Assembly: GCF_963921235.1 (NCBI RefSeq)
Contig: NC_086107.1
Location: 108,626,001 to 108,690,000, forward strand
Reading direction: 5' to 3'
Source of the DNA: Mobula hypostoma
Lineage: Eukaryota
DNA: 64,000 bases
Notes under the pieces: generated by a model
Seen by the model: only the letters and a program-made list of their open reading frames with translations
The model's database searches: none
Told to the model about the DNA's origin: nothing
Part shown: in pieces, positions 2,476 through 47,289 of the stretch
Layout of the letters: each line of letters starts with the position of its first letter
How positions within the stretch are numbered: the stretch's first letter is position 1
Program-made: the position numbers and the translations under genes

Positions 2476-2765
2476 CTCTTACTAATCAAAAACTCATCAA
2501 CCTCCGCTTTAAGTGTACCCAGTATCATTGTTCCCGATGACCAGTGCTCCTGGTGTTACCTCCAGCTGGAGTCATTGCCTGGAGAAATTGCAGAGAGTAG
2601 TGGACTCAGCCCAACATATCACAGGCACGTCCCTCCCCACAGTCCGCAGTATCACATCATGAAGATTGATGAAGAGTCTCAGCCAGAAACAACGGTTTAA
2701 GATGGCGCTGGTGAATCTCAGTGACTCCTGGCTAGTGGCCGGTGAAACAAGCAAAACAACTAAAT

Positions 2766-3410
2766 AACACACATCAAAGTTGCTGGTGAACGCAGCAGGT
2801 CAGGCAGCATCTCCAGGAAGAGGTACAGTCGATGTTTCAGGCGGAGACCCTTCGTCAGGACTAACTGAAGGAAGAGCTAGTAAGAGATTTAAAAGTGTGA
2901 GGGGGAGGGGGAGATGCAAAATGATAGGAGAAGACAGGAGGGGGAGGGATGGAGCCAAGAGCTGGACAGGTGATTGGCAAAAGGGATATGAGAGGATCAT
3001 GGGACAGGAGGCCCAGGGAGAAGGAAAAGGGGGAGGGTGGGAAAAACCCAGAGGATGGGCAAGGGGTATAGTCAGAGGAACAGAGGGAGAAAAAGGAGAG
3101 TGAGAGAAAGAATGTGTGTATATAAATAACGGATGGGGTACGAGAGGGAGGTGGGGCATTAGCGGAAGTTAGAGAAGTCAATGTTCATGCCATCAGGTTG
3201 GAGGCTACCCAGACGGAATATAAGGTGTTGTTCCTCCAACCTGAGTGTGACTTCATCTTTACAGTAGAGGAGGCCGTGGATAGACATGTCAGAATGGGAA
3301 TGGGATGTGGAATTAAAATGTGTGGCCACTGGGAGATCCTGCTTTCTCTGGCGGACAGAGCATAGGTGTTCAGCAAAACGATCTCCCAGTCTGTGTCGGG
3401 TCTCGCCAAT
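2766..3410 (-). mobile_element. Penelope-like element, inverted arm (GIY-YIG C-terminus + 3' UTR, no tail)
   Basis: Part of ORF 3159..3524(-): IGETRHRLGDRFAEH...RLEEQHLIFRLGSLQPDGMN; 645-bp inverted copy of 3434-4078. Confidence 0.92.
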
Positions 3411-4123
3411 GCTCCCGATGTGGCTTTCTATATATTGGCGAGACCTGACGCAGACTGGGAGATCGTTTTGCTGAACACCTATGCTCTGTCTGCCAGAAAA
3501 AGCAGGATCTCCCAGTGGCCACACACTTTAATTTCGCATCCCATTCCCATTCTGACATGTCTATCCACGGCCTCCTCTACTGTAAAGATGAAGCCACACT
3601 CAGGTTGGAGGAACAACACCTTATATTCCGTCTGGGTAGCCTCCAACCTGATGGCATGAACATTGACTTCTCTAACTTCCGCTAATGCCCCACCTCCCCC
3701 TCGTACCCCATCCGTTATTTATATACACACATTCTTTCTCTCACTCTCCTTTTTCTCCCTCTGTTCCTCTGACTATACCCCTTGCCCATCCTCTGGGTTT
3801 TTCCCACCCTCCCCCTTTTCCTTCTCCCTGGGCCTCCTGTCCCATGATCCTCTCGTATCCCTTTTGCCAATCACCTGTCCAGCTCTTGGCTCCATCCCTC
3901 CCCCTCCTGTCTTCTCCTATCATTTTGGATCTCCCCCTCCCCCTCACACTTTTAAATCTCTTACTAGCTCTTCTTTCAGTTAGTCCTGACGAAGGGTCTC
4001 GGCCTGAAACATCGACTGTATCTCTTCCTGGAGATGCTGCCTGGCCTGCTGCGTTCACCAGCACCTTTGATGTGTGTTGCTTGAACTTCCAGCATCTGCA
4101 GAATTCCTCGTGTTTGCGTTTTT
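3410..4123 (+). mobile_element. Penelope-like element 3' end (GIY-YIG remnant, UTR, hammerhead, tail)
   Basis: Translates CSRCGFLYIGET*RRLGDRFAEH...PDGMNIDFSNFR* (3410-3685), containing the YIG motif and one premature stop. Confidence 0.92.
3981..4018 (+). ncRNA. Minimal hammerhead ribozyme, stem III mutated (GAAACAUC)
   Basis: tagtc-CTGACGA-agggtctcggcct-GAAA-catc-gactg; the mirror copy at 2826-2863(-) carries the same G>A change. Confidence 0.7.
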
Positions 4124-5619
4124 AAACAACTAAGTACTTTGTTAATCACTCTTTTTCTGGTAAATGATAATCAGAAACAATAGACTGTAACTTCCCTTTG
4201 GACTTGGAGGCAATTTGACGTGGCAGAGCCGAGGTGAGGCTGAACTGGAAGGGTCGGGTAAAGGGTAAATTGAGGTATCGGGGTTCAGGCACCAGTGCGT
4301 TTCGAAGAGACTGAACCCAATGCTTAGACGGCAATTTAGGCACCGGGCAGATTGAAAAGGTCAGGGTGTCAGAGTCTGAGGCAAGGGACAGGCCTGTTCA
4401 GCTCAGCTGACTGCTCAGCTCTTGCGCTGAACCAAGGGTCTGTGGACGGACTCTCCGTTCAGAAAGGTATTTGCTTGTGGGTATTTTTTGCATGACTTGT
4501 TTCTCACCATCTGCACATTGGGTGCTTGACTGTCTTTTTTAAATGGGTTCTCTTGGGTTTCTCTGTTTTGTGGTTGCCTGTTAGGAGACAAATCTCAAGG
4601 TATACTTTGAACTTTGAACTTTCAACATTGACTGTTTATTCCCCTCCATCGACCTGCTGAGTATCTCCAGATTCTGTGTTGGATTTTTTTTTTGTTCTAA
4701 ATGTGTCCCTGTGGAATTTACCATATTTTTTATTTTTCTTGTGAATATTGGTTAACTGAGGCCAAGTACCTGCGATGCTGCTGCAAGGAAGGTTTTCACT
4801 ACACCTGTGCGTGCACGCACACTTCCTGTAGCAATAGATCAGCTCTGACTTTTGCTGGTGTTGCTACCTGCTGGACTTACCCCCGCTGGGGCTGCTCCTG
4901 CTCGCCTCCTGCTGTGGCTGAGCGTCCAGCTGGTCCACCAGATGCAAGAGAAAAAAAATCCCTTGACAGCCCGATCACCTCCCACGTTACCGTCACGGTC
5001 AACACCTTTGACAGCTGATTCTTTGTGTCAACAGTCTCCACCCTGTAGGTCAAATTGCAGATGTTCGTGAGCAAGTGGCTGGCAGCAGCTCTGTTATTTT
5101 ATAAATTACTCTCTTTTACAGTTTACCAAGGCAATCCATCAATTGTGTAGAGGATATTGTCAACTAAATTACACAGTACTGCCCATTCCACTTAAGTGAT
5201 TACCTGACAGTGTAAAATTCTTTTTGGTGGCGTGATACCTGAAATGCTTTTCAAATCAATGGCCTTTATGCAATATTTATTTAGACTGCTGAGTTCTATT
5301 GCTGAACGAGATAGTTATCGTCAACTGTCCAGAAGATTCGCATCCTTCAGGCCTTTGTTGCATTCAGGTAATGTCAGTAAACTTTACCAGTTTGAATCTT
5401 CAGTGGCCAAGGGATCAAATTGACAGCTGACTCACCGATGAAGAGCGATAATGAGTCTTTGAGGAGATGGTCCCCCTCAGTCTGCCTTTTCATTAACATG
5501 AATCAGGAAATATTCCCATTTCACACTCCTTCCCTAACTCCGAATACTCCAATAGTTAAAGAATAAATTTCCCATTATCTACAGATGCAACATGCATTAA
5601 AGCAGTCGTGAACATACAC

Positions 5620-6030
5620 AGAACATAGAACACAGCACAGTATAGGCCCTTCAGCCCACTGTTCTGTGCCAATCTAACCCTTCCCTCACAATTTCACAGT
5701 TTTTTTTCTCAATTATTATGTATTGCATTGTATTGCTGATGCACAGTCGACAATTTTGAATCTTAATCTACTCTAACATCAATCTAACCCTTCCCTCCTA
5801 CATAGCCCTCTATTTTTTTTAATCAACCATGTGCCCCCTAAATGCCCCCTAATGTTTTTGCCTCTACCACCACCCCTAGCAGGATGTCCTACCCACCACT
5901 CTCTGTGCACTGTAAATAACTTACCTCTGGCATTCCTCCCGTGCTCTCCTCTAATCACCTTAAAATGCCGCCTCCTCATGTTAGCCATTTTTGCCCTGGG
6001 ATAAAGTCTCTGGCTGTCCACTCAGTCTAT
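5620..6030 (-). mobile_element. CR1 LINE 3' fragment
   Basis: ORF 5779..6021(-) MDSQRLYPRAKMANMR; CR1-type 3' UTR with short tandem tail. Confidence 0.75.
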
Positions 6031-7004
6031 GCCAAAGGTTCCCTAGCTGGGGTTCACGGACCACTTGGTTAATGGTAAGCCTCCATGGCTTGGGAATCCT
6101 TGAGAGAGTTTCAATACTGTGTATCTGTTGTTCTTGAGCCTCGTCTATCATCGGCAGTTAAAATGACTCACGTTCCTGTAATATATTACCCATCCCTTCC
6201 AGAATGCCTGAAATGCTGCCCAGCCAATGAAGAAGTTTAAGAATGGTTATTGATGTGAATGGGAAATGCGGCACGCATCATGGGCAAGATTTATTAATGA
6301 TGTAATGACCCGATAACACATATTGGAAATTGGCTGAGAGTTGGCCCAGGAGGCTGGGATGAGCTCTTCTTTAAAATAGTGTCATAAGTTGTCTAATGAG
6401 TGAATGATGCCTTACTTTAGTGTCCTATCCAAAGGACAGCACGTCCTACAAGACAACACTCTCTCAGTACTGCACTGGAGGAACAGCGATGAGCAGGAAT
6501 TTCTTTAGCAAGAGGATGGAAATGATTACCACAGACGGCTGTGGGGACCTATTCAATGGGGACATTTAAAGTGGAGGTTAATAGGTTAGGGGAAGAAGGC
6601 AGGAGAATGGGGTTGAGAGGGTAATTAATCAGTCATGATCAAATGGTAAGCAGACTCAATGGGCTGAATGGCCTGATTCTGCTCCTGAGTCCTATGGTCT
6701 TATAGGGGTGCCAGGCTGGACTTGTGTGCTCAGGTCTCTGTAGTGGGACTCATGTTCAATTTAGAGACACAAGAGAGACAGCAAATGCTGGAACCTGGGG
6801 CAGAGAATAAACTGCTACAAGAACACAGAGTGTCAGGAAGCATCAGTGAGGGAGACGGAACTGGCAACATTTCAGCTCAAGACCCTTCATCAAGACTGAA
6901 ATATCATCAAGACTGTCCACTCCCTCCATAGATGCTATCTGGCCCACCGAGTTCTTGTTGTTTTTTCTCCCCCCCTATTTCAATTTAATAGTCAAGAGGA
7001 AATC

Positions 7005-7196
7005 AGCAGATCAGGCAGCATCTACAGAGAGGAATGCTTCAGCCCGAGATCCTTCATGAAGTCCTGATGAAGGGCCTCAGCCTGAAGAATTGACTGATTA
7101 TTTGACTCCGTAGATGCTGCCTGACCTGCTGAGTTCCTTCAGCACTCTGTGTATGTTCCTCAAGATTTCCAGCATCTGCAGAATCGCTTGTGTTTA
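7005..7196. mobile_element. Old PLE 3' module in hairpin arrangement
   Basis: An inverted partial arm is joined to gtcctgatgaagggcctcagcctgaag..gatgctgcctgacctgctgagttcc..ccagcatctgcag. Confidence 0.7.
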
Positions 7197-7199
7197 ATA

Positions 7200-7730
7200 G
7201 GCAAGGGTAGGTGAGGTGTCTATGGAGGGGTAGCGCCACTGGTGAAGTTGCTTATCGTGTCCATTCTAGGGCAGATCACTCACCTTTGGTCCTCTCCGGA
7301 TACTCAATTCTCATTTGTGGCTCCAAGTAATTATTCGCACGTGACAGCGGCCACACCGCAGTACACCACTTTGACAGGTGGGCTAAACCCAGGTGAGGGT
7401 CTCGTACTCCAGGGAGATAGATGCTTGTCCTCACATGTGAAGTCAGGTCCGGATGAGATCTACAGTGAGATCCAACAGGCAGGAAGGCAGTTCTGCAACG
7501 CTCTGTGGAGCGGGAACGGCGCGACGAGGAACAGAAGACGTCATGGTCATCTGCTGTAACCAAGGGAGACCACAGTTTGTGATGCTTGTTCCTCCCACTG
7601 GACCTGGAGCTCAGAGGATGAGAGAGTGGGAATGCACCAGTGGCTCTCCGCACAGTTTTCCTGTCATCGACGGATATGATGGACAACCACCCCAAAAGGC
7701 AAGAGAAACTTTAGCCCATAAGCCAAAGTA
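7200..7730 (+). mobile_element. Probable RTE-derived non-autonomous repeat
   Basis: GC-rich noncoding block with a gggctaaacc motif also seen near 55683; resemblance to RTE 5' UTRs is from memory only. Confidence 0.35.
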
Positions 7731-7960
7731 ACTTTGATTATGCCCAGAAGCGAGAGACTGTAGATGCTGGCAACCTAGAGCAACGCACAAAGGGGCTGGA
7801 GGAACTTAATGGGTCAGGAGTGCTGCTCTCCAGTGTTTGCTCAGCTGGATTGCATGCATACACTCGTCTGTGCATTGGTGAGAACTGCTGACAACACTCA
7901 TGCACCATCAATCCATCACTCTACAGGACATGATACAGAAGGACTTGGGCTATATATCTA

Positions 7961-8521
7961 CGAGGGGTGATTGAAAAGTTCATGGCCTAAGGTAGAAGGA
8001 GTCAATTTTAGAAAACCTAGCACACTTATTTTTCAACACAGTCCCCTCCTACATTTACACACATAGTCCAGCGGTCGTGGAGCATACGGATCTTGGATCT
8101 CCAGAAAGTGTCCACAGCAGGGGTGATTGATAAGTTTGTGGCCTAAGGTAGAAGGAGATGAGTTGTACAGCTCTCGTTACATGCACTTGCAGTTCAACTC
8201 TTTGAGTGATTATGCAGAAAGTTGGAAGTTAATAACTCATCCCCTTCTACCTTAGGCCACAAACTTATCAATCACCCCTCGTACGGCAAGTGCCCACCAA
8301 TGGCATGCCAATCCATTCTTGTGCCTAGAATGATTAGGTTAGAGCCACAGGACAATCACCCCTGCTGTGGACACTTTCTGGAGGTCCAAGATCCGTATGC
8401 TCCACGACCGCTGGACTAAGTGTGTAAATGTAGGAGGGGACTATGTTGAAAAGTAAATGTGCTAGGTTTTCTAAAATTGACTCCTTCTACCTTAGGCCAC
8501 AAACTTATCAATCACCTCTTG
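7961..8521. mobile_element. mariner-type MITE
   Basis: TA-cgaggggtgattga...tcaatcacctcttg-TA; TA TSD; long inverted arms and internal TIR copies. Confidence 0.9.
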
Positions 8522-8641
8522 TATATATTCGGTGTGTGACTGTATATTTACTGCTACCTTATATGTGCTTTATGTGCCTTGTGTAGATGGTTCTGTGCTT
8601 TGCATCTTGGCCACGGAGTAACACTGTTTCGTTTGGCTGTA

Positions 8642-8772
8642 ACACATATCAAAGTTGCTGGTGAACGCAGCAGGCCAGGCAGCATCTCCTGGAAGAGGTA
8701 CAGTCGACGTTTCGGGCTAAGACCCTTTACGTGTATTGCTTGAATTTCCAGCATCTACAGAATTCTTCGTGT
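8642..8772. mobile_element. Mini PLE hairpin insertion
   Basis: Inverted arm (to 8727) plus direct tail; TSD tttcgttYggctgta at 8627-8641 and 8773-8787. Confidence 0.8.
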
Positions 8773-9679
8773 TTTCGTTCGGCTGTATTCATGTATGGTT
8801 GAATGATAATTAAACTTGAACTTGAGTTTGAAAAGGACATTTCAGGTCGGGAGCCTGCACCAGGGCTCATCCTGACAAGAATCTTGATGGATCTCGACCT
8901 GTGCCCATTTCCTCCCCACAGATGCTGCATGGCCAGCTGAGTCTCTCCAGCCTCTTTTTGTGTCAGTTTGATCGCACAAAGTCTGGCATTGGCTATCATG
9001 CGATCACCCGACTCCACTGGACTCAGATCCACTACTGGTTGCCTCACATGTCTGTCCTCCCAGTTACTGCCCTATCCCAGCCAATCAGAGTGAACACAGA
9101 CCCCTCCATACCTCTACCTGGATGATTCTTAACTGTCAATCAAACACTCTCTATTCCTTATATTTAGGGTTTCAATTTTAAAAGAAAATTTTTTAAAAGC
9201 ATATAATTTTTACTCGCTCCTGTTTTCTGGCCAGTATCTCTCACAGCAGATTTTATAATTGTTTGAATTTTTAGTGCTGCCCTGGTGACAGATTCAGGGA
9301 GATCAGTGCTGCCGAGCTTCCCTTGAGACAGGCTTGAAGCTCGCAAATTTACATTCTGTATCTAAGAATGAGCCAACTAGAATTTCGATCAAAAGTTTTC
9401 TCGACTTCAGATTATCAAAAAGATTATTATGCTAAAAAGAATTCACCAGTGTCATGTCAGAATGCAGGATGAGTTGCCTGTCATTTTGTCTTCATTGACT
9501 GGTATAAAACAGAGAGAGGCTTTAATTCTCTGACCATTGTGCCACTCGCGTTTAGGGCAGGAAGGAATGTCCTCCATCTCTGGCAGTGTTCAGGGCTTCA
9601 TTCACTGTCTCAGTAGCTTCCAAGGAGACAATAATCCATCAGGTTTATTTTCAAGTTTGAGCTCAGAGGTGGAATGACC

Positions 9680-10240
9680 ATGAGGCATAGGAGCAGAATT
9701 AGGCCATTTGGTTCATTGAGTCTGCACCGCCATTTCATCATGGCCGGTCCATTTCCCTCTCAGCCCCAATCTCCTGCCTTCTCCCCGCATCCCTTCATGC
9801 CCTGACCAATCAAGAATCTTTCAACCTCTGCCTTAAATATACCCAATGACTTGGTCTCCACAGCCGCCTGTGGAAACAGATTCCACAGATTCATCACCCT
9901 GTGGCTCAAGAAATTCCTCCTCATCTCCTTTCTAAAAGGAAGCCCCTCTATTCTGAGGTGCCTCTCGTCCAAGACCCCACCACACCATAGAAAACATCCT
10001 CGCCACGTCCCGTCTATCGAGGCCTTTCAATATTCGAAATCCAGCGGGTAGAGCCCTGGAGCCATCAAAAGCTCCTCATATTACAAGCCTTTCAATCCCA
10101 GGCTCATTTTTGTGAACCTCCTCTGAACCCTCTCCAGCGTTTGCGCATCCTCTCGAAGACAAGGGCCCCAAACTGCTCACAATACCCCATGTGAGGCCTC
10201 ACCAGTGCTTCATAAAGCCTCGATATTACGCCCTTGCTTT
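9680..10240 (-). mobile_element. CR1 LINE 3' fragment
   Basis: ORFs 10104..10289 (LYEALVRPH..YC.QF) and 9760..9972 (EMRRNF..RV.NLWN..GIFKAEV). Confidence 0.88.
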
Positions 10241-10444
10241 CCAGCCTAATACTACACATCAGACAGTGATTTAAGTGTTGTGCACACAAGATTGTTGAAG
10301 CTTAACGGATGCAAAATCCAAAGGTTTTTTACTTTTGCAAGAATATGCATCTCTGGCTATGACCCCCGCAGATGCATCTCTACCTCACTCACAAGATATG
10401 GGCATTGTATGCAGAGCCAGCAATTATTACCATGGCTAACTGGC

Positions 10445-10829
10445 CCACGGAATGGGAAATCCTACAAAAGTTAATGGATCCATCCTGGTACATCATGGGT
10501 AAAACCCTCCCAACCACTGAGCACATCAACATGAAACGCTGTCATAGAAAAGTAGCATCCATCATCAAGGACCCCCACCACCCAGGTCAGGCTCTCTTCT
10601 CACTGCTGCCGTCAGATGGAACGTACAGGAGCCTTAGGATTCACACCACCAGGTTCAAGAACAGTTACTACCCCTCAACCATCAGGCCCTTGAACAAAAG
10701 GGGACAATTACACTCATTTGTCCCTTCCATTGAGATGTTCCCACAACCAATTATCTCTTTTTAAGGACTTTTTATCTTGTTATCTCATGTTCTCATTATT
10801 TATTGTTATTTCTTTACATTTGCATTTGC
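10445..10829 (+). mobile_element. Rex1/Babar-type LINE 3' fragment (UTR resumes at 13771-13863)
   Basis: KVASIIKDPHHPGQALFSLLPS..YRSLRIHTTRFKNSYYP is the C-terminal motif of this clade. Confidence 0.8.
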
Positions 10830-10830
10830 T

Positions 10831-17400: not shown

Positions 17401-17429
17401 AGGCAGGTGAAATAATGATCTTATTGATT

Positions 17430-23384: not shown

Positions 23385-24365
23385 TTCTCCTCACCTGGCT
23401 ATCAACTCCCCCGGTGTTCTCCTCCTTCCCTTTCGCCCATGGTTGACTCTTCTCCTGTCAGATTCCTTCATCTTCAGCCCTTTACCTTTTCCACCAATCA
23501 CCTCTCAGCTATCTTGTGCGATTATGATGGGGACAGACCAGCTCTGCGGCCTGAAGTTAATACATGACACAGCACTGGACTGAACTGAGCTAAACTGAAT
23601 ACTTTCATTGACCGCGTGGGTTGGAGTTGTATATTCTGAGTTTTTCGCTAATTTTCTTTTCGCTATTTGCACGATTTGTTTTTTTTTGCCCCATTGGGGG
23701 TTCAATGTTTTTCTTTGAATGGGTTCCATGGTTCTGGCCCAAAATGTCAACTGTACTTTTTTCAATAGAAGCTGCCTGGCCTGCTGAGTTCCTCCAGCAT
23801 TTTGTGTGTGTTGCTCGGATTTCTAACGTCTGCAGATTTTCTCTTGTTTGTGATTGGACACTCTGAAGTCTCTTCCAGGGATGCCTACCCTGAAGAAGTT
23901 TAAATCTTCCCTTTGGAAGGGTCTCAGCCCGAAACGTTAACTGTACTCTTTTCCATAGATGCTGCCTGGCCTGCTGAGTTCCTCCAGCAGTTTGTGTGAC
24001 TTGCTTGGGTTCCATGGTTTTCGTTTTTTTTGGGGCTGTCTGTGAGAAGACGAATCTCAGGGTTGTATACTGCATACAGACTTGAGAATAAACGTATTTT
24101 GAATCTTCGAATCTTTGAAGCTTCATACTTCATACCCTCCCACACTCACCTGGTTTCACCTATCACCTTCCAGTTTGTTCTCCTTCCCCTCCCCCCAGCT
24201 TCTTATTCTGACTTCTTCCCCCTTCCTCTCTGTCCTGATGAAGGGTCTTAGCCTGAAGTGTCAACTGTTTATGCTTTTCCATAGATGCCGTCTGGCCTGC
24301 TGCGTTCCTCCAGCATTTTGCAAGTGCTACTCTGGATTTTCAGCATCTGCAGAATCCCTTGTGCT
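23385..24365 (+). mobile_element. Nested cluster: old PLE 3' part > LINE-derived repeat (about 23516-24120) > tandem PLE mini-insert (23734-24005)
   Basis: The PLE UTR is interrupted and resumes near 24120; the inner insert has a 14-bp TSD tgggttccatggtt at 23720-23733 and 24006-24019. Confidence 0.75.
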
Positions 24366-25189: not shown

Positions 25190-25430
25190 TATGGATGGTA
25201 TACAAGACTACGAAGGGCATCGATAGAGTAAACGGCCAGAATCTGTATCACATAGTCTGGGGAGCCTAGCATAGGTTAAAAGTGAAAGGGAGGATATTTA
25301 AAGGAGTTCTGAGTGGCAAATCTTTCACACGAAGAGCTGTTTGCCAGATGAGGTAGGAACAGAAACAACTGAGGCGTCTAGATAGGTCCTTGAATGGGCA
25401 GAGCTTAGAGGGATATGGAATTAATTCAGA
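25190..25430 (+). mobile_element. Degenerate CR1 3' fragment leading into the satellite
   Basis: gtatacaagactacgaagggcatcgatagagt..ctagatagg..agagggatatgg. Confidence 0.7.
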
Positions 25431-28421
25431 CACAGAGGCATATGGAATTATTCAGACACAGAGGGATATGGAATGAATTCAGACACAGAGGCATATGGAA
25501 TTATTCAGACACAGAGGGATATGGAATTAATTCAGGCAGAGGGATATGGAATTAATTCAGGCAGAGAGGGATATGGAATTATTCAGACAGAGAGGGATAT
25601 GGAATTAATTCAGACAGAGAGGGATATGGAATTATTCAGACAGAGAGGGATATGGAATTAATTCAGGCAGAGGGATATGGAATTAATTCAGACAGAGGGA
25701 TATGGAATTAATTCAGGCAGAGGGATATGGAATTAATTCAGACAGAGAGGGATATGGAATTAATTCAGACACAGAGGGATATGGAATTAATTCAGACACA
25801 GAGGGATATGGAATTAATTCAGACACAGAGGGATATGGAATGAATTCAGACACAGAGGCATATGGAATTATTCAGACACAGAGGGATATGGAATTAATTC
25901 AGACACAGAGGGATATGGAATTAATTCAGACAGAGAGGGATATGGAATGAATTCAGACACAGAGGCATATGGAATTATTCAGACACAGAGGGATATGGAA
26001 TTATTCAGACACAGAGGCATATGGAATTATTCAGACACAGAGGGATATGGAATTAATTCAGACACAGAGGGATATGGAATTAATTCAGACACAGAGGGAT
26101 ATGGAATTAATTCAGGCAGAGGGATATGGAATTATTCAGACAGAGAGGGATATGGAATGAATTCAGACACAGAGGCATATGGAATTATTCAGACACAGAG
26201 GGATATGGAATTAATTCAGACACAGAGGGATATGGAATTAATTCAGACACAGAGGGATATGGAATTAATTCAGACACAGAGGGATATGGAATTAATTCAG
26301 ACAGAGAGGGATATGGAATTAATTCAGACACAGAGGGATATGGAATGAATTCAGACAGAGAGGGATATGGAATTAATTCAGGCAGAGGGATATGGAATTA
26401 TTCAGACAGAGAGGGATATGGAATGAATTCAGACACAGAGGCATATGGAATTATTCAGACACAGAGGGATATGGAATTAATTCAGACACAGAGGGATATG
26501 GAATTAATTCAGGCAGAGGGATATGGAATTATTCAGACACAGAGGGATATGGAATTAATTCAGACACAGAGGCATATGGAATTAATTCAGACAGAGAGGG
26601 ATATGGAATTATTCAGACACAGAGGCATATGGAATTATTCAGACACAGAGGGATATGGAATTAATTCAGACAGAGAGGGATATGGAATTAATTCAGACAG
26701 AGAGGGATATGGAATTAATTCAGACACAGAGGGATATGGAATTAATTCAGACACAGAGGGATATGGAATTAATTCAGACAGAGAGGGATATGGAATTAAT
26801 TCAGGCAGAGGGATATGGAATTAATTCAGACAGAGAGGGATATGGAATTAATTCAGACAGAGGGATATGGAATTAATTCAGACACAGAGGGATATGGAAT
26901 TAATTCAGACACAGAGGGATATGGAATGAATTCAGACACAGAGGCATATGGAATTATTCAGACACAGAGGGATATGGAATTAATTCAGACACAGAGGGAT
27001 ATGGAATTAATTCAGACAGAGAGGGATATGGAATGAATTCAGACACAGAGGCATATGGAATTATTCAGACACAGAGGGATATGGAATTATTCAGACACAG
27101 AGGCATATGGAATTATTCAGACACAGAGGGATATGGAATTAATTCAGACACAGAGGGATATGGAATTAATTCAGACACAGAGGGATATGGAATTAATTCA
27201 GGCAGAGGGATATGGAATTATTCAGACAGAGAGGGATATGGAATGAATTCAGACACAGAGGCATATGGAATTATTCAGACACAGAGGGATATGGAATTAA
27301 TTCAGACACAGAGGGATATGGAATTAATTCAGACACAGAGGGATATGGAATTAATTCAGACACAGAGGGATATGGAATTAATTCAGACAGAGAGGGATAT
27401 GGAATTAATTCAGACACAGAGGGATATGGAATGAATTCAGACAGAGAGGGATATGGAATTAATTCAGGCAGAGGAATATGGAATTATTCAGACAGAGAGG
27501 GATATGGAATGAATTCAGACACAGAGGCATATGGAATTATTCAGACACAGAGGGATATGGAATTAATTCAGACACAGAGGGATATGGAATTAATTCAGGC
27601 AGAGGGATATGGAATTATTCAGACACAGAGGGATATGGAATTAATTCAGACACAGAGGCATATGGAATTAATTCAGACAGAGAGGGATATGGAATTATTC
27701 AGACACAGAGGCATATGGAATTATTCAGACACAGAGGGATATGGAATTAATTCAGACAGAGAGGGATATGGAATTAATTCAGACAGAGAGGGATATGGAA
27801 TTAATTCAGACACAGAGGGATATGGAATTAATTCAGACACAGAGGGATATGGAATTAATTCAGACAGAGAGGGATATGGAATTAATTCAGGCAGAGGGAT
27901 ATGGAATTAATTCAGACAGAGAGGGATATGGAATTAATTCAGACAGAGGGATATGGAATTATTCAGACAGAGATGGATATGGAATGAATTCAGACACAGA
28001 GGCATATGGAATTATTCAGACACAGAGGGATATGGAATTAATTCAGACAGAGAGGGATATGGAATTAATTCAGACACAGAGGGATATGGAATTAATTCAG
28101 ACACAGAGGGATATGGAATTAATTCAGACAGAGAGGGATATGGAATTAATTCAGACACAGAGGGATATGGAATTAATTCAGACAGAGAGGGATATGGAAT
28201 TAATTCAGACACAGAGGGATATGGAATTAATTCAGACACAGAGGGATATGGAATTAATTCAGACACAGAGGGATATGGAATTAATTCAGACACAGAGGGA
28301 TATGGAATTAATTCAGGCAGAGGGATATGGAATTAATTCAGACAGAGAGGGATATGGAATTAATTCAGACAGAGGGATATGGAATTAATTCAGACACGGA
28401 TACGGAATTAGTTCAGACACA
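25407..28421. repeat. 27-bp satellite (gagggatatggaattaattcagacaca)n with shorter variants and a 1086-bp higher-order duplication
   Basis: Roughly 110 tandem units; identical ORF translations recur at an offset of 1086 (25947/27033, 26126/27212). Confidence 0.97.
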
Positions 28422-36309: not shown

Positions 36310-36867
36310 CACTCAGCCACTTTATTAGGTACACTTGTATACCTGCTCATTAACGCAAACATCTAATCAGCCAATCATGTGGCAGCAACTCAATGCATAA
36401 AAATATGCAGACATGGTCAAGAGGTTCAGTTGTTGATCAGACCAAACATCAGAACGGGGATGAAATGTGGATCTAAGTGACTGTGACTGTGGAATGATTG
36501 TTGGTGCCAGACAGGGTGGTTTGAGTATCTCAGACACTGCTGATCTCCTGGGATTTTCATGCACAACAGTCTCCAAAATTTACAGAGAATGGTACAATAA
36601 ACAAAAACATCTGGTGAGCGGCAGTTCTGTGAGCAAAAACACCTTGTTAATGAGAGAGGTCAGAGGAGAACAGACTGGTTCAAGCTGACAGGAGGCGACC
36701 ATAACTCAAATAACCACACGTTACAACGGTGGGGTGCAGAAGAGCATCTCTGAATGCCCAGTACATCGAACATTAAAGTGGATTGGCAAAAGCAGCAGCA
36801 GACCGTGAACATACAGAAATACACTCCGTGGCCACCTCCCGGGACCTAATAAAGTGGCCACTTAGTG
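36310..36867 (+). mobile_element. Non-autonomous Tc1-like element
   Basis: TA-flanked TIRs; ORF 36467..36688 DLSDCDCGMIVGARQGGLSISDTADLLGFS. Confidence 0.88.
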
Positions 36868-37373
36868 TATAAAATTTAATTTGCCAATTCAGACATCCAA
36901 TTATTAATGGTCTCTCTCGTTCCTACACTGCAAATAAATCACCAGGCTACCATACCTTACAGTAAAGTGCTGCTTCCTGATTTTCCTCCTAAATCTAACT
37001 TAACTATTGTCCCTCCCCCCCCTCCACTCCGTGTTCTGGACTCCCCTGTCATGTTCCCTGCATGCGCACCCCATTTTTTTTAAATGTCTGCATCACCAGA
37101 GCAGATCATCACTCAATCTTCCATACTAAATCCAAGCTGAGACTGCGATTTTTACTGCTGTCTTTATACGAGGGGTGATCGATAAGTTTGTGGCTTAAGG
37201 TAGAAGGAGTCAATTTTAGAAAACCTAGCACATTTATTTTTCAACGTGGTCCCTTCCTACATTTACACACTTAGTCCAGCGGTCATGGAGCATACGGATC
37301 CCTTCTTTGTAGAAGTGGTCCACAGCAGGGGTGATTGATAAGTGTGTGGCCTAAGGTAGAAGGAGATGAGTTA

Positions 37374-37829
37374 ACAAACAACAGGAATTCTGCAGATGCT
37401 GGAAATTCAAGCAACACACATCAAAGTTGTTGGTGAACGCAGCAGGCCAGGCAGCATCTCTAGGAAGAGGTACAGTCGACGTTTCAGGCCGAGACCCTTC
37501 ATCAGGACTAACTGAAGGAAGAGTTAGTAAGAGATTTGAAAGTGGGAGGGGGAGGGGGAGATCCAAAATGATAGGAGAAGACGGTGGGGGGGGGGGGATG
37601 GAGCCAAGAGCTGGACAGGTGATTGGCAAAAGGGATATGAGAGGATCATGGGACAGGAGGCCCAGGGAGAAGGAAAAGGGGGAGGGGGGAACCCAGAGGA
37701 TGGGCAAGGGGTATAGTGAGAGGGACAGCGGGAGAAAAAGGAGAGTGAGAGAAAGAATGTGTGTATAAAAATAAATAACGGATGGGGTACGAGGTGGAGG
37801 TGGGGCATTAGCGGAAGTTAGAGAAAGTT
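37374..37829 (-). mobile_element. 5'-truncated Penelope-like insertion
   Basis: Close match to 3667-4115; perfect 13-bp TSD aggagatgagtta at 37361-37373 and 37830-37842. Confidence 0.92.
37473..37510 (-). ncRNA. Minimal type I hammerhead ribozyme (intact core)
   Basis: Minus strand UAGUC-CUGAUGA-AGGGUCUCGGCCU-GAAA-CGUC-GACUG: both core boxes, stem I, palindromic ACGU stem III, GUC site. Confidence 0.82.
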
Positions 37830-38887
37830 AGGAGATGAGTTATACAGCTCTTGTTACATGCACGTGCAGTTCAACTCTTTGGGTGAAAATGCAGTAGGTT
37901 TGAAGTTAATAAGTCATCTCCTTCTACTGTGGGCCACGAACTTATCAATCACCCCTGCTGTGGACCGCTTCTGGAGGTCCAAGACACCAACTTCTACAAA
38001 GAAGGGATCTGTTTGTTCCATGACCGCTGGACTAAGTGTGTAAATGTAGGAAAAATAAATGTGCTAGGTTTTCTAAAATTGACTGCTTCTACCTTAGGCC
38101 GCGAACTTATCAATCACCTACGTATGCAGCTCAGATCTTCCTTCTCCAGGCAAGTAAGTGTAGAGGTAATTCGGAAGGCTACTCTGCACGATGTATGGGG
38201 ACTGATGAATAACCTTAGCTGCTCGAAAGTGGAACACACGCAGGATTACTAAAGGGCATTTATAAATGCCTGTATAGTTTCACATTTAACTTTGAGGATT
38301 TGTGCTTCTTCAGGTGAACTGGGTTCTATAATCACAGGAAGATGAACAATGCTCTTGAAAAGAAGAAAGGTTCTGGGAACGCTGATTGACGCAAGAATTG
38401 TTTTGTTGAGGGAACAGAAAGTGGGCTGGTGAAAGTGAAGATTTCAAGATTGTGCAGGGAATCGGCAAACAGACATTCTAGGGGATGCTCACGGAAGGGA
38501 ATGGTTTCAATGCAGGGCCAGGCAGACGAGATGTCGACTTTTTTTCTTTATTCCGAATGTAACATCTACCAACGACAAAATGTCCCCGAGGCACCTTCCA
38601 GGAACTCTAAGCGAACAAGAGGAGAGGCCAAGTCACACGAGAAGATGGCGGGGACAACTGGCCCGAGGCCCGGACAGAAGGAAGACAAGAAGAAGCATCC
38701 GGAAGAAAGTGGAGAGGTTTGTGGGGGAGAAATGCCAGAGTTCACGGTCTGGACAGCTGAGACAGAGAGACCAGAATGACCAGAGCATAGAGTCCTCAAA
38801 GGGTGATGGGGCTGGAGTAGAATGTGGGATGAACTGGAGCAACGAGACCAAGGAGGAGTTTGCATCATTTAATATCACCACTGGAAT

Positions 38888-41800: not shown

Positions 41801-41940
41801 CACTGCAACTTTATTGCACTGCAACTCATCCCAATGGCTACACATTTGCCCCATCACCTGCCTGTCTTTCCTGACATCTTTACTGCTCACCATCTTAGAT
41901 TTATTTCTGTTTTCCCCTTCCTCCGCTCTATCATTCCGGG
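38888..41940 (-). mobile_element. CR1 LINE with near-complete ORF2
   Basis: Short tandem tail (gtcttatg on the minus strand) at 38888-38907; EN and RT ORFs; truncated near 41940. Confidence 0.95.
38985..41766 (-). pseudogene. CR1 ORF2 (APE endonuclease + reverse transcriptase), 1 frameshift and 1 stop
   Basis: YLNARS, ITETW, YRPP, GDFN, KSPGPDG, YRPVSLTS, YLDFQKAFDKVPH, GVPQGSVLGP, KFADD; frameshift near 40225 and stop at 39261-39263. Confidence 0.95.
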
Positions 41941-41944
41941 AGGT

Positions 41945-42292
41945 GACGTACTGGACTGGAGTTCAATTGCATTCTTTCAGTCTTATGTTTTTATACTCTG
42001 TGTTTTCGCCTGTTCTTTCTTGTTGCAATTTGCATGATTTGTTTGTTTCTTTGTGCATGAGGGGGTTGATGTTCTTCTTGTTGTATGCACAATTTATTTT
42101 TGCACACGAGAGTTTGATGCTCTTGTTGCCATTTGAGCAATTTGTTTCTTTTGCGCATGGGCGTTCGACATTTCTCTTTGAACGTTCTCCACGGTTTTCT
42201 GTGTTTCATGGCTCTCTGGAGAAGAGAAATCTCAGAGTTGTATACTGCATACATGCTTTGATAATAAATGTGCCTTTGAACCTTGAACCTTG
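41945..42292 (+). mobile_element. LINE-type 3' UTR fragment with (tgaacct)n tail
   Basis: aatctcagagttgtatactgcatac..aataaa..tttgaaccttgaaccttga; relatives near 4440, 24050 and 33350. Confidence 0.6.
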
Positions 42293-42732
42293 ACTGGTTG
42301 AGCAGGGAATATAAATGAATTGGAGAGTGAGAGTGAAAGAGAGAGAAAGTGAGAAAGAGAGGGAGAGAAAGAGAGAGAAATTAGTTTCACTTATTGCGTG
42401 GATATTGAAACATGAGGTGAAATGCTTCACATGCGACGGCGATGTGCTGAGGACAGGCCACAAGCATTGCCATGCTTATGATGCAAACATAGCGTACCCA
42501 CGACTTACTAACCCAACTTGTATGCTTTTGGAATGTGGGAAGAAACCAGAAGACCTGGGGGAAACCCAAATGGTCATGGGTGGAACGTACAATCTCCTTA
42601 CCGACAGTGGTGGGAATTGAACCCCAATCTTACAACTGGCATGCTGTAAAACATTACTCTACCGTACGGGCCAGAACCTAAAACCCGAAAGGATAGGTGT
42701 CCGAGTTGGAAAGGAGCAGATGGAAGACGTCA

Positions 42733-42938
42733 ACACAAAATAATCTGCAGATGCTGGGGTCAAAGCAACACTCACAACATGCTGGAGGAACTCAGCAGGT
42801 CGGGCAGCATCCGTGGAAAAGATCGGTCGACGTTTCGGGCCAGAACCCTTCATCAGGACCCGGTTCCGGCCCGAAACGTCGACCGATCTTTTCCACGGAT
42901 GCTGCCCGACCTGCTGAGTTCCTCCAGCGTGTTGTGAG
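42733..42938. mobile_element. 206-bp PLE hairpin insertion
   Basis: 38-nt tail plus 77-bp arms (42771-42847 / 42862-42938); perfect 15-bp TSD agatggaagacgtca at 42718-42732 and 42939-42953. Confidence 0.92.
42825..42860 (-). ncRNA. Minimal type I hammerhead ribozyme (intact core, variant stem I)
   Basis: Minus strand GGUC-CUGAUGA-A-GGGU-UCUG-GCCC-GAAA-CGUC-GACC. Confidence 0.82.
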
Positions 42939-43019
42939 AGATGGAAGACGTCACACTGGGTTTTTCAAATGAAAGGAAGTGGGAGGATTAGAGGTTCTGT
43001 AGCGGTGATTCACCTTCCT

Positions 43020-44015
43020 GGAGGTTAACGTAATGCTACTACGGCATCAGCGACCCAGGTTCAATTCCCGCCACTCTCTGTAAGGAGATTGTGCTTACTC
43101 CCCATGTTCGTGGGTGTTTCATCTGGGTGCTCTGGTTTTCTCCCGCATCCCAAACATGTACGGGTTAGGGTGAGTGACTGGTGGGTATACTATGCTAGCA
43201 ATGGAAGTGTGGCAACACTTATTTAGATTAGATTATGAGGACACTCAATTCTCGTTTATTATCATTTAGAAATGCATGCATTAAAAAGTGACACAATGTT
43301 CCTCCAGAAAGATATCACAAGAAAAAAAAAGGACAAACCAAGACTAAAACTGACAAAACCACATAATTATAACATATAGTTACAACAGTGCAAAGCAATA
43401 CCGTAATTTGATAAAGAGCAGACCATGGGCATAGTTAAAAAAAAGTCTCAAAGTCCTGATAGCCTCATCATCTCACGCAGACGGTAGAAGGGAGAAACTC
43501 TCCCTGCCATGAACCTCCAAGCGCAGCAAACTTGCCGATGCAGCACCATTGGAAGCACCCGACCGCAGCGGACTCTGAGTCCGTCCGAAAACTTCGAGCC
43601 TCCGACCAGCCCCTCCGACACAGCCTCTCCGAGCACCATCCTCTGCCGAGCGCTTCGACCCCACCCCGGCCGCCGAGCAACAAGCAAAGCCGAGGACTCG
43701 GGGCCTTCCCCTCCGGAGATTCTGGATCACACAGTAGCAGCAGCAGCGAAGCAGGCATTTCAGAAGTTTCACCAGATGTTCCTCCGTGCTCTCATGTCCG
43801 TCTCCATCAAATCAGGATTGTGCACGGCACCTTACTTGACAAATAACAGACGTCACCACCAGAGTGGCCGCTGCGATCTACGTCGCGCCGCCATCTTCTC
43901 CTCCCGCTATGGGCTGCCCTTAGCACATCCTCAGATTGTGTTAATCGTCGGCACAAGCAACACATTTCACTGTATGTTTTGATGTACAGGTGTGACAATT
44001 AAAGCAAATCTCTCA
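43020..44015 (+). mobile_element. V-SINE hosting retroposon copy 3
   Basis: B box ggttcaattccc, V core, tail resumes after 43905. Confidence 0.65.
43223..43904 (-). mobile_element. Noncoding retroposon copy 3
   Basis: gccgccatctt at 43887-43897; (ttaga)n tail at 43223. Confidence 0.85.
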
Positions 44016-44342
44016 TCTGTAACGAGGAAGGATTGAGAAGACTGAGCCTATACTCTCCGTGGGTGAGAAAATTGAGAGTTGATCCCATTGAGACACACAA
44101 GATTCTGCAAGGGCTTCGCAGGGTCAATGTTGAGAGGATGTTTACTCCTGAAGGGAATCATGAGAGAATGGGACTAGATTCAAGGATAAGTGGTTGGTCA
44201 CTTTAAGTACCTGCTTCAACATTTAATTGGACAGCCAGATGACCTTTAACCTCAATGTGGATAGGAAAGGTTAAGAGGGATAACAGCTGAAGGTGGGTAA
44301 AAGAGGCTAGCTTAAGTGGATATGAAGGGCCTGTTTCCAAAT

Positions 44343-44920
44343 GACCATAAGAATTAGGGCATTCGGTCCGTCAAATCTGCTATAGCATTCCATCATGGCT
44401 GATTTATTTTCCCTCACAACCCGCTTCTCCTATCTTCTCCCTGTAACCTTTCACACTCTTACTAATCAAGAACTTATCAACTTCCACTTCAAATATACTC
44501 AGTGACCTGACCTCCACAGCCATCTGTGGCAATGACTTCCACAGATTCGCCACTCTCTGGCTAAAGAAATTGCTGCTCATCTCTGTACTGAAGGGACATC
44601 CTCTTATTCTGAGGCTGTGCCCTCTGGACCTGAACTTTCCCACTATCGGTAGCATCCACTCCACATCCACGCTCTCTAGGTCTTTCAATATTCAGTAGGT
44701 TTCAGTGAGATTCCGACCCCCCTGGTTTTTCTAAACTCCAGTGAGCATGGGCCCAGAGTCATCGAACATGTTAACCCTTTCATTCCTGGGATCATTGTCG
44801 TAAACCTTCTCTGGATCCTTTCCAATGCCAGCACATCCATTCTTAGATATGGGGCTCAAAACAGCTCACAATACTCCAAATGTGGTCTGACCAATGTCTT
44901 ATGAAGCCTCAGCATTACCT
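44343..44920 (-). mobile_element. CR1 LINE 3' fragment
   Basis: ORF 44404..44688 SRGHSLRIRG..FFSQRVANLW. Confidence 0.88.
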
Positions 44921-45164
44921 ACTTCTATGCAGTGAGAGACTATAACTCTCTCACTTTCCTGTATTAATCCCGTTTCCCTGATTCCCTTAGCAATAAGGAA
45001 TCTATCAGTATATGAACTATCTTCTGTGCAAAACCTGAACACACTCAGTTAATGATTTCTGCAGCCCTCTTGGGAAGATGTATTCAAAGATTCCCCATTC
45101 TGTGGCTTCTCATAACAGTCTTGAATTGCAGACCCCTTCTTTAAACTTATTAAGTTTAATTCCA

Positions 45165-45745
45165 TGTTATTTCCACTACATGATGGTCCATGACCTCCTC
45201 TATTGCCATGAAGAGGCCACTCTCGGGTGAGAGGAGCTTCACCTCATATTCCGTCTGAGTAGTCTCCGACCTGATGACGTGAGCATCGCTTTCTCTAACT
45301 TCTGGTAATTCCTCTCCGCTCCCTCTGTTTTTTCATTCCCCATTCTGGTTCTCCTCTTACTTATTCTCTTCTCCTCACTTGTCTATCACTTTTCTCTGAT
45401 GCCCCCCCTTCCTTCCCTTTCTCCCAAGGTCCACTGTCCTCTCCTATCAGATTCCTTTTTCTTCAGTCTTTACCCTTTTCCACCTAACACCTCCCAGCTT
45501 CTCACTTCATCTCCCCTCCCTCACCCATCTACCTTCCCCCCACCTGGTCTCTCATCCATCACCTGCTAGTTTGTACTCCTCCTCCATCCCACACAGCACC
45601 CCCCCCCATCTTCTTATTCTGGCTTCTTCCCCACTTCCTTTCCAGTCCTGATGACGAGTCTCAGCCAGAAACGTCAGCTCTTCATTCCTTTCCAGAGATG
45701 CTGCCTGACCTGCTGAGTTCCTCCGGCATTTTGTGTGTGTTGCTG
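45165..45745 (+). mobile_element. Degenerate PLE 3' part
   Basis: GIY-YIG end, pyrimidine-rich UTR, decayed hammerhead at about 45643-45680. Confidence 0.8.
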
Positions 45746-45926
45746 TTATTTTACAACTGTGTCCCCTGATTCAGGCACCTCAGCCAGAGGCAGTATCAAC
45801 TCCACTTCACTCTATTAGATTATCTCTAGATTCCAACAGGATAATATCTCATTCTTCTAGGCTCAGGAGAATACTGCCCCGGCTTAATCTTTTCTCTCAG
45901 GGCAAACACGCCACTTGACGATATTT

Positions 45927-46070
45927 AAAATGCAAACAACAGGGTTTCTGCAGATGCTGGAAATTCAAGCAACACACATCACGAAGGGTCTCGGCCTGAA
46001 ACGTCGACCGTACCTCTTCCTAGAGATGCTGCCTGGCCTGCTGTGTTCAACAGCAACTCTGATGTGTGTT
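45927..46070. mobile_element. Mini PLE hairpin insertion
   Basis: Tail on the minus strand, then an inverted arm ending gatgtgtgtt; TSD acttgacRatattt at 45913-45926 and 46071-46084. Confidence 0.85.
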
Positions 46071-47289
46071 ACTTGACAATATTTTCTTCCTTCGGTAGTT
46101 TGCATCTGTATAAAACAGAGTGATGGATATGAGAACCAGGTACAAGTCCATGGGATTTACGCTAAAATTAGAAATTAATCGTCAGCATTTAAAGAACTTC
46201 AAGGCTGACTTTGCAGTCTTTGGATCTTAAGGCTGAGACAAGAGTGAGACTAGAGCTCCCAAAGCTGGTCTTAATGATGCTCTTTGGTCAGATCCACTGA
46301 TTGACAACACAGAGAACTGCATTGGTGAGGATCCCACCCACCACAGTTATTCTCTCTTCTCCCCTTTCCCATGGGGCAGAACACACAACAGCCTGGAAGT
46401 TTGTACCACCAGGCTCAAGGACAACTTCTGCCCTGCTGTAATAAGACTATTAAATGGTTCCAGAGTTCGATAGGGATGGACTCTTGACCTCACGATCTAT
46501 CTCGTTGTGATCTTCATTCTCTATCTGCTCTGAACTTCCTCTGTAGCTGTTACACCTTATTGTGCACTGTCATTGTGTTACCTTGTTCTACCTCAATTCA
46601 CTGTGTAATGAGTTTCTGTCTCGCTGTGATCTTGAACTACGTTGTTTATCTGCTGCGCACTCACTCTGTAGAATGTATAGTTTATTCTGCGTTGTTTTTG
46701 TTTTACCTTGTTCTACCTCAGCGCACTGTGTAATGATCTGATCTGTGTGAACAGTATGCAAGACAAGCCTTTCACTGTGTCTCTGCACATGTGACAATAA
46801 GAAGCCAACACCAACACTGCCTCGATTTACTGCTTCTTATTCCACAAAACAATAGAATTTAAATCACGAAATAATCATCACTTCACACACAGTCTGGAAT
46901 TTGCTGACCTGTTTCAGCAGATGCCAGATGGTCTTCTAAGGAGCTCCTAGTGAGCTGTCAACTTAATCCAGTCCATGATTTTCTTTCTCTGTCACTACGT
47001 TGAAATCAGCACTCATTACACCTGCATCCCAGGTATTTGAAACTGTGGAATTCACCCTTTCCCTACTGCCACCTACGGCACTAGCTAGTCTGAACATCTT
47101 GGTTCTTCAGGAAGATTCAATGGTACCAACTCAACAGCAAACCCCACCCCACCCCCCAAATCCTCCCCTCCGCACAAGCCCCCGGCACCCTCTCGACTTC
47201 CCGTGCTCACTAACCAATGATGCTGGATTGTGGCCAGACGATCGGAAAATTGTGCCTCATCGTCTTCAAGTTCCTCCAAAGTCTCACCC

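What the first reader, a model, noticed from the sequence alone, without database searches (positions are those of the whole stretch)
2754..46084. Recurrent TSD-flanked asymmetric hairpin insertions with a fixed inverted-arm endpoint
Seen: four independent inserts (about 2764-4123, 8642-8772, 42733-42938, 45927-46070) share one plan. One end is the full PLE terminus; the other is an inverted copy that stops 35-45 nt short of that terminus; all have 10-15-bp TSDs. In the three copies of the same subfamily the inverted arm ends at the same site (aacacacatc/gatgtgtgtt; aacacatatc at 8641). Established: Penelope elements with inverted pseudo-LTRs show a short unpaired 3' tail. Inference: the fixed endpoint marks a defined second priming, nicking or template-switch site. 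Such mini-hairpins could also be an independently mobilised, retrozyme-like unit.
Basis: partly seen in the sequence, partly recalled or inferred. Interest (0 to 1): 0.72.

Follow-up and report, generated by a model that had tools for sequence, protein, structure and literature searches.

The report
Two-armed Penelope retrotransposon insertions
These small hairpin-like inserts are short, head-to-head insertions of a very abundant Penelope-type jumping gene in a ray-like fish, and the shared arm end is best read as the already described second start point of the element's copying enzyme, so the finding is real but mostly known.

Summary
The four inserts are real. Each has a 13-15-bp target duplication, one arm with the 3' tail and one inverted arm without it. 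The three same-subfamily short arms end at one base (+/-1). They are 5'-truncated inverted insertions of a Neptune-like Penelope element (GIY-YIG end, minimal hammerhead motif). This architecture is in print (PMC3846280, PMC8557442). The fixed end matches the second of two reverse-transcription start sites that bound the 30-40-nt tail (PMC11167929).

Two corrections. Inserts 2 and 4 are barely hairpins: their arms share only 11-13 nt, so simple fold-back cannot make them. The end is preferred rather than fixed: an older copy stops 20 nt earlier.

A self-amplifying retrozyme-like unit is not supported. All six central junctions differ, two of three minis lack a hammerhead core, and none is a tandem monomer.

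Modest new point: all six duplication-flanked inverted inserts carry one tail end and one short end (P about 0.014). This suggests both target ends are primed at different sites, perhaps on one RNA. The genome-wide endpoint test was inconclusive. Earlier notes of this scan reached the same general reading on other DNA, including another piece of this genome.

The parts
2754..2766 (+). Insert 1, left target-site duplication (13 bp, 1 mismatch to right copy; 10 exact)
2767..3410 (-). Insert 1, inverted short arm (644 nt, no tail; 3' end maps to 4077/4078)
3411..4123 (+). Insert 1, tail-bearing arm; 3411-3433 is the unpaired centre, 4078-4123 the unpaired 46-nt tail
3411..3685 (+). C-terminal half of a GIY-YIG endonuclease of a Penelope-like element (CxxC before YIG; one in-frame stop)
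3982..4017 (+). Minimal type-I hammerhead motif (stem I 3982-3985 with 4014-4017, core, stem II, predicted cut after 4013); matched by eye to the published description, not found by Rfam
4124..4136 (+). Insert 1, right target-site duplication
8627..8641 (+). Insert 2, left TSD (15 bp, 1 mismatch; its first 7 bases also resemble the element's tail)
8642..8727 (-). Insert 2, short arm (maps to 3992-4077)
8722..8772 (+). Insert 2, tail arm (maps to about 4065-4113); only about 13 nt shared with the short arm
8773..8787 (+). Insert 2, right TSD
42718..42732 (+). Insert 3, left TSD (15 bp, exact)
42733..42861 (-). Insert 3, tail arm (older subfamily; 38-nt unpaired tail 42733-42770; complete hammerhead core)
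42862..42938 (+). Insert 3, short arm (77 nt paired; 3' end maps to about 4074)
42939..42953 (+). Insert 3, right TSD
45913..45926 (+). Insert 4, left TSD (14 bp, 1 mismatch)
45927..45981 (-). Insert 4, tail arm (maps to 4068-4122); 11 nt shared with the short arm
45981..46070 (+). Insert 4, short arm (maps to 3989-4078); 1-nt overlap at the junction
46071..46084 (+). Insert 4, right TSD
6997..7192 (.).
6764..6978 (.).
37374..37829 (-). Single-armed, tail-ended copy of the young subfamily with a 13-bp TSD; a paralogous empty site at 8033-8279 holds the target once
63007..63163 (-). Single-armed, tail-ended copy with an 8-bp TSD; four paralogous uninterrupted sites in the window
23734..24005 (+). 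Direct partial tandem that ends near the short site (about 4082) next to an exact 14-bp TSD, without any inversion

Best explanation
The inserts are ordinary short products of a Neptune-like Penelope retrotransposon. (1) The GIY-YIG nuclease cuts both target strands 8-15 nt apart; this gives the TSD (TSDs shown here; two-strand cutting shown in vitro for the anole element). (2) Each freed 3' end primes reverse transcription on the element RNA, one at the outer start (tail end, about 4113-4123) and one at the inner start (about 4078); the tail is the stretch between the two starts (two starts shown in vitro for the anole element; assignment here inferred). (3) Both cDNAs stop early, often in the hammerhead region 3982-3997, and their ends are joined head to head over 0-4 nt of shared sequence (junctions shown, joining route inferred). 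So the 'fixed end' is a start site of cDNA synthesis, and each mirror arm is built at insertion. Whether one RNA or two serve as template is open; I favour one (about 50 in 100).
For: Element identity: the arm translates to a GIY-YIG C-terminus, 94% identical to a ray protein with RT-thumb, linker and nuclease. Architecture in print: inverted 5'-truncated copy, tail on one side, 8-10-bp TSD (PMC3846280; PMC8557442). Two RT starts bounding the tail, both strands cut and extended, predicted dimer (PMC11167929). Here 3' ends are bimodal: of 34 selected profile hits (of 42), 17 end at the tail, 13 in the short zone, 3 between, 1 before. The short site is also used without inversion (23734-24005, exact 14-bp TSD). 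In inserts 2 and 4 each arm holds sequence the other lacks, so both were copied from the RNA. The one opposite-strand joint among 15 shown of 523 in public contigs (3983/4071, runs X1 and X5) is of the same type. 6 of 6 TSD-flanked inverted inserts have one tail and one short end (P about 0.014). Three family inserts have paralogous empty sites with the target once.
Against: The short site is not among the 24 loose-end rows shown of 3630, where the tail end (4126) is; the genome-wide fixed end is therefore not shown. Insert 5 ends 20 nt early. In the three clean long-overlap inserts (1, 3, 5) the tail arm runs 23, 14 and 9 nt further 5', as fold-back would predict. The in vitro data are for a Poseidon element, this one is Neptune-like, and that study saw no strand difference in start-site use. 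The stem-loop predicted at the short site shows no covariation above shuffles (136 to 294 of 500 shuffles reach the observed values). No empty site was found for the four inserts given.
Confidence: 0.78

Rival explanations
1. Fold-back: one tail-primed cDNA primes on itself at its 3' end and is copied back, stopping about 40 nt short of the tail where protein stays bound. The fixed end is then a stop site. Inserts 2 and 4 would be fold-backs that later lost most of the tail arm by a central deletion.
For: In inserts 1, 3 and 5 the arms end within 9-23 nt of each other and the tail arm is the longer. The arms of insert 1 share 14 variants against the 37374 copy and differ at 8 sites in that interval. 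Self-priming was proposed for Penelope palindromes (PMC3846280).
Against: In inserts 2 and 4 the short arm holds 73-79 nt absent from the tail arm. Later deletions would have to end at 4065 and 4068 (P about 0.02 if uniform), and a public joint ends at 4071. The short site also ends a non-inverted copy next to its TSD. Shared variants fit any model with one source gene.
Confidence: 0.13
2. The mini-hairpins are a non-autonomous, retrozyme-like unit that is copied as a whole.
For: The 3983/4071 joint has summed depth 101 (2 contigs) in X1 and 148 (2 contigs) in X5, against 17 and 38 for single flank contigs, so it may stand in a few copies in two species. Many 5' ends cluster in the hammerhead region. 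Animal retrozymes are reported to derive from Penelope end repeats (bioRxiv 10.64898/2026.07.22.740005).
Against: All six central junctions differ, also between inserts 2 and 4 of one subfamily, and their tail ends differ. Inserts 2 and 4 begin inside or after the hammerhead core. None is a head-to-tail tandem. In the anole element the RNA needs sequence 3' of the start sites, which insertions do not keep. The highest joint depth shown is 698, against summed depths of millions on the arm; this test is weak for junctions that break into short contigs.
Confidence: 0.04
3. The pairs are two independent insertions, or later rearrangements, that happen to lie head to head in a genome crowded with this element.
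For: 42 profile hits in 64 kb; 215,740 contigs laid in run X1. Seven of 13 head-to-head neighbours have no TSD that I found.
Against: One TSD encloses both arms in six cases; the arms of insert 1 are 97.5% identical and share derived variants.
Confidence: 0.05

Closest known systems
Endonuclease-bearing Penelope-like elements with inverted pseudo-LTR and optional tail (Pen2a_Av, PMC3846280; general scheme PMC8557442; D. virilis Penelope 34-bp repeat, PMC2377424)
   Same: Inverted 5'-truncated copy head to head with the main copy, a 30-40-nt tail on one side only, TSD of variable length, C-terminal GIY-YIG, hammerhead motif in the end repeat.
   Different: Here the inserts are stumps of 131-215 nt or 1.36 kb; tails are 33-54 nt and TSDs 8-15 bp; two inserts have almost non-overlapping arms.
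Poseidon element of the green anole, PAc (PMC11167929)
   Same: Two internal start sites bound the tail; both target strands are cut and extended; start sites lie downstream of a hammerhead whose cleavage is not needed.
   Different: This family has the Neptune-type linker; the start region is GU-rich, not AC-rich; the passages I read do not treat inverted insertions and report no strand bias, whereas here each inverted insert pairs one tail start with one short start.
L1 twin priming and dual priming (described in PMC2837659)
   Same: Second target nick primes a second cDNA; two inverted pieces inside one TSD; junction with little or no shared sequence. Inserts 2 and 4 work like this.
   Different: L1 picks the internal site by chance pairing and starts on poly(A); here the second start is a defined site and the arms often overlap extensively.
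Non-LTR retrozymes (bioRxiv 10.64898/2026.07.22.740005)
   Same: Short, non-coding, derived from Penelope end repeats, type-I hammerhead motif.
   Different: Retrozymes are head-to-tail tandems with a complete hammerhead in each unit; these are head-to-head, single, and two of three minis lack the core.

Membership tests
Endonuclease-bearing Penelope-like elements | C-terminal GIY-YIG nuclease with two cysteines between GIY and YIG (CCHH motif) | tested here: met
   Insert 1 reads CSRCGFLYIGET...EH...H...EEQHLIFRLGSLQPDGMN; full homologues match Pfam GIY-YIG at E 0.0005-0.008, below the curated cut-off; the 78-aa fragment alone hit nothing.
Endonuclease-bearing Penelope-like elements | Telomerase-like RT upstream of the nuclease | tested here: inconclusive
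   No RT stretch in the window. The 94%-identical homologue P0001 has a YIDD motif upstream of the nuclease; no tree was built.
Endonuclease-bearing Penelope-like elements | Hammerhead motif in the end repeat | tested here: met
   Core, stem II (95% of cells paired) and stem I (83%) present across copies, matching the minimal type of PMC4209133. Rfam did not report it; covariation is not above shuffles; cleavage untested.
Endonuclease-bearing Penelope-like elements | Inverted 5'-truncated copy, one-sided 30-40-nt tail, variable TSD | tested here: met
   Six inserts, tails 33-54 nt, TSDs 9-15 bp.
Neptune clade | CX2-5CxxC linker between RT and nuclease | tested here: met
   CX4CxxC in P0001, P0002, P0004, P0008 and CX3CxxC in P0003; definition from PMC8557442. 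Seen in homologues, not in the window. Nematis shares the motif, so the label is 'Neptune-like'.
Neptune clade | RT phylogeny | not tested
Non-LTR retrozymes | At least two consecutive tandem units, each with a complete type-I hammerhead | tested here: not met
   All are head-to-head single inserts; inserts 2 and 4 start at 3992 and 3989, inside or after the core; definition.
Non-LTR retrozymes | Circular or self-cleaved monomer RNA | not testable with these tools
   Only assembled contigs were offered; they cannot show RNA ends.
Self-amplifying mini element | Same central junction at different loci | tested here: not met
   6 of 6 junctions in the window differ. Genome-wide only a low-depth recurrent joint was seen, in a cut table.

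The most novel reading that the evidence does not exclude
Penelope-like elements make their inverted insertions by programmed twin priming: a protein dimer holds one RNA, and the two target ends are placed on the outer and the inner start site, one each. The tail-primed enzyme either stalls 7-13 nt after meeting the second cDNA (inserts 2 and 4, public joint 3983/4071) or displaces it and runs to the same 5' stop (inserts 1, 3, 5). This one rule would explain the one-sided tail, the matched arm lengths and the shared variants. I did not find it stated for these elements in five searches.
Probability: 0.4. Interest if true: 0.55.

Novelty: new member of a known kind. Interest (0 to 1): 0.3.

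Why it matters
How Penelope-like elements form their inverted, one-tailed insertions is still called undefined in the literature I read (PMC8557442; PMC11167929 leaves the later steps open). A genome with this many short copies is a ready data set: the one-tail-one-short rule and the nearly non-overlapping arms separate two-primer models from fold-back and can be counted directly. The fixed end itself adds only a Neptune-like example to a result already shown for Poseidon.

Tried and rejected
No whole genome is held for this window, so the genome-wide count could not be made on an assembly. Rfam found no hammerhead; its 6 matches at E up to 1 are microRNA families far below threshold. DNA pattern scans: 0 hits in metagenomes for a 30-nt motif; 8 hits for a shorter motif, all only short weak matches to the profile (8.7-20.7 bits); 0 in viral contigs. 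No RNA holder was listed; run X15 is RNA only by guess and is not used as evidence of expression. Laying contigs gave no place where many molecules begin or end and no empty site that could be verified; one contig of organism C starts at 4124, the first base of the right TSD, but that flank is itself a repeat and its other letters were not shown. Paralogous empty sites: none for inserts 1-6. Stem-loop at the short site: recurs in 3 of 3 young copies but z is +0.17, +0.21 and -1.02, the consensus fold keeps 4 pairs, and covariation does not exceed shuffles; not claimed. Hammerhead cleavage as the source of the 5' ends: rejected for inserts 2-5, whose arms begin 16-31 nt upstream of the predicted cut or (tail arms of 2 and 4) about 50 nt downstream; only the short arm of insert 6 begins there. 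Supplements 1 and 2 of PMC11167929 gave labels only; Fig. S2 and the sequence file could not be seen and may bear on how sharp the two start sites are.
Full report
OBSERVATION. All element positions below are given on one reference, the right arm of insert 1 (window 3411-4123, + strand). A mismatch-tolerant search found target-site duplications (TSDs) of 13 bp (1 mismatch), 15 bp (1 mismatch), 15 bp (exact) and 14 bp (1 mismatch) exactly at the ends. 31 of 600 random position pairs scored as high; 29 of those scored far higher and probably fall in the window's tandem arrays, which I did not check one by one. The short arms of inserts 1, 2 and 4 end at 4077, 4077 and 4078, and all three fit 4078 because the next base is shared with the TSD. 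Insert 3 belongs to an older subfamily and ends at about 4074. Unpaired tails are 46, 36-43, 38 and 44 nt.

CORRECTIONS. Inserts 2 and 4 are not real hairpins. In insert 2 the short arm covers 3992-4077 and the tail arm about 4065-4113; in insert 4 they cover 3989-4078 and 4068-4122. The arms share 13 and 11 nt. Inserts 1 and 3 pair over 644 and 77 nt with centres of 23 and 14 nt. Two more inverted inserts were missed: 6997-7192 (13-bp TSD), whose short arm stops at about 4058, and the older 6764-6978 (9-bp repeat, found only with the wider setting, for which no null was run).

WHAT THE ELEMENT IS. The arm of insert 1 translates to the C-terminal half of a GIY-YIG nuclease. It is 94% identical to a protein annotated in a devil ray, with 10 further hits among 55 candidates, mostly from rays and skates. 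Those homologues carry an RT motif, a CX4CxxC linker and the nuclease; the linker marks Neptune and Nematis as against Penelope/Poseidon (PMC8557442, passages). A minimal hammerhead motif lies at 3982-4017 (by eye against PMC4209133, passages; pairing counted; not reported by Rfam). The family is very abundant: 42 profile hits in 64 kb and 215,740 contigs laid in one run.

TWO KINDS OF 3' END. Of 42 hits I kept 34 (at least 20 bits, starting at or before profile position 105). 17 end at the tail, 13 in the short zone (positions 103-123), 3 between and 1 before; 13 of 17 non-tail ends in a 21-position zone gives P = 1e-4, with the zone chosen after looking. Alignment drop-off in the GT-rich stretch may add to this for old copies, but not for those that abut a TSD. 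The short site is used without inversion too: 23734-24005 is a direct partial tandem that ends at about 4082 beside an exact 14-bp TSD. For this insert and two single-armed copies (37374-37829, 63007-63163) the window holds paralogous uninterrupted sites with the target once, so this family does make such TSDs. No such site was found for inserts 1-6.

WHAT IS IN PRINT. The inverted 5'-truncated copy, the tail on one side and the TSD are described for rotifer elements (PMC3846280, passages), as a general scheme (PMC8557442, passages) and, as inverted repeats and a 34-bp repeat, for D. virilis (PMC2377424, passages). PMC11167929 (parts 1 and 2 of 4, holding the main text; passages; supplementary figures not visible) shows that an anole Poseidon protein cuts and extends both target strands and starts reverse transcription at two internal sites. 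The tail is the sequence between them, genomic copies end on both, and hammerhead cleavage is not needed.

MECHANISM. Shown here: one TSD encloses two outward-pointing arms; in inserts 2 and 4 each arm holds sequence the other lacks; junction overlaps are a few bases at most. A fold-back of the tail cDNA cannot supply 3989-4064, and a fold-back of the short cDNA cannot supply the tail, so both arms were copied from the RNA unless a later deletion removed most of the tail arm. Two such deletions ending at 4065 or later have P about 0.02 if uniform. The only opposite-strand joint among the 15 shown of 523 in public contigs, 3983/4071 in organisms A and B, is of the same type; both of its ends are also places where the older subfamily stops matching the reference, so it counts for less. 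All 6 TSD-flanked inverted inserts have one tail and one short end (P about 0.014 under free choice). Of 13 head-to-head neighbours listed by hand, 11 have exactly one tail, none has two, and 2 weak pairs have none (P about 0.01); 7 of the 13 have no TSD and may not be single events. Inferred: a staggered double cut, one primer on each start site, early stops, end joining. This works like L1 twin priming (PMC2837659, passages) but with a defined second site. One RNA per event would explain the one-tail rule, the matched arm lengths and the 14 variants shared by the arms of insert 1 against the 37374 copy. Two RNAs from one source gene in an asymmetric dimer would fit as well.

AGAINST THIS READING. 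The tail arm is longer at its 5' end in inserts 1, 3 and 5, as fold-back predicts, and self-priming has been proposed before. In one search the tail end (4126) is a top loose end in three of four runs, but the short site is not among the 24 rows shown of 3630, so the genome-wide fixed end was not demonstrated. Insert 5 ends 20 nt early. The predicted stem-loop at the short site has no covariation support. The in vitro work is on another clade and saw no strand bias.

MINI-UNIT IDEA. All six central junctions differ. Inserts 2 and 4 begin inside or after the hammerhead core, and nothing is arranged as tandem monomers, which the retrozyme definition requires (bioRxiv 10.64898/2026.07.22.740005, parts 1 and 2 of 5). 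In the anole element the template needs sequence 3' of the start sites, which insertions lose; carrying this over to Neptune is inference. The 3983/4071 joint has about 4-6 times the depth of a flank contig, which is small against summed depths of millions, but contig graphs detect high-copy junctions poorly and the table was cut. I give the idea 4 in 100.

EARLIER NOTES. Two unchecked notes of this scan reach the same general reading, one on another piece of this genome and one in a shark. I had given my reading before seeing them, and they are not independent support.

VERDICT. Real, and a new member of a known kind. The fixed end is best explained by a published mechanism. What remains of interest is the one-tail-one-short rule and the nearly non-overlapping class, which I did not find stated for Penelope-like elements in five searches of the held library (most subscription papers are not covered). 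They rest on six inserts. Interest 0.3.

Noticed in passing
window 3' junctions of inserts 1, 2, 4 and copies 37374-37829, 63007-63163: The first six target bases after an arm match the element's own continuation at 17 of 36 positions (random 9.1; P 0.003). Two junctions drive this and the TSD definition biases it upward, but it hints that target-RNA pairing tunes the start by a few bases.
   Followed up: partly
window 3982-3997 (reference arm): Six of eight arm 5' ends in inserts 2-5 fall in the 5' half of the hammerhead, and several public joints end at 3982-3983. The short inverted repeats of its stems may serve as joining points, or the RNA may begin or stall the enzyme there.
   Followed up: partly
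window 3955-3983 and 37507-37540 (-): A pyrimidine tract followed by AG, with a branch-point-like word in the 37374 copy, lies directly before the hammerhead core. In D. virilis Penelope an intron ends at helix I. The AG is also part of stem I, so this may be coincidence.
   Followed up: no
window 4094-4103 (reference arm): An 8-bp palindrome inside the tail is among the best conserved parts across subfamilies; a candidate binding or pairing site.
   Followed up: no
window 23734-24005: The partial tandem keeps about 60 nt beyond the tail before the second copy begins; this may be the element's own continuation 3' of the outer start.
   Followed up: no
table 5c: Joints from 4018, 4055 and 4092 to 3982, in two runs, are 37 nt apart from each other; strand not given, possibly chance.
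   Followed up: no
window 6755-7205: Two inverted inserts lie side by side; the left TSD of insert 5 overlaps the right TSD of insert 6.
   Followed up: partly
window 7954-8528, 37157-37372 and 37843-38118: Another repeat family with 176-nt inverted arms (94%), possibly a DNA transposon; one copy is the target of the 37374 insertion.
   Followed up: no
window 25350-28270 and 58990-59890: Minisatellite arrays of 26-27-bp and 29-bp units; the first includes an exact 300-nt repeat 1086 nt apart.
   Followed up: no
proteins P0003, P0006, P0010: Ray gene models named as a kinase-domain protein, ATP synthase subunit C3 and VKORC1L1 isoforms contain this element's nuclease end: exonised insertions or annotation artefacts.
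   Followed up: no
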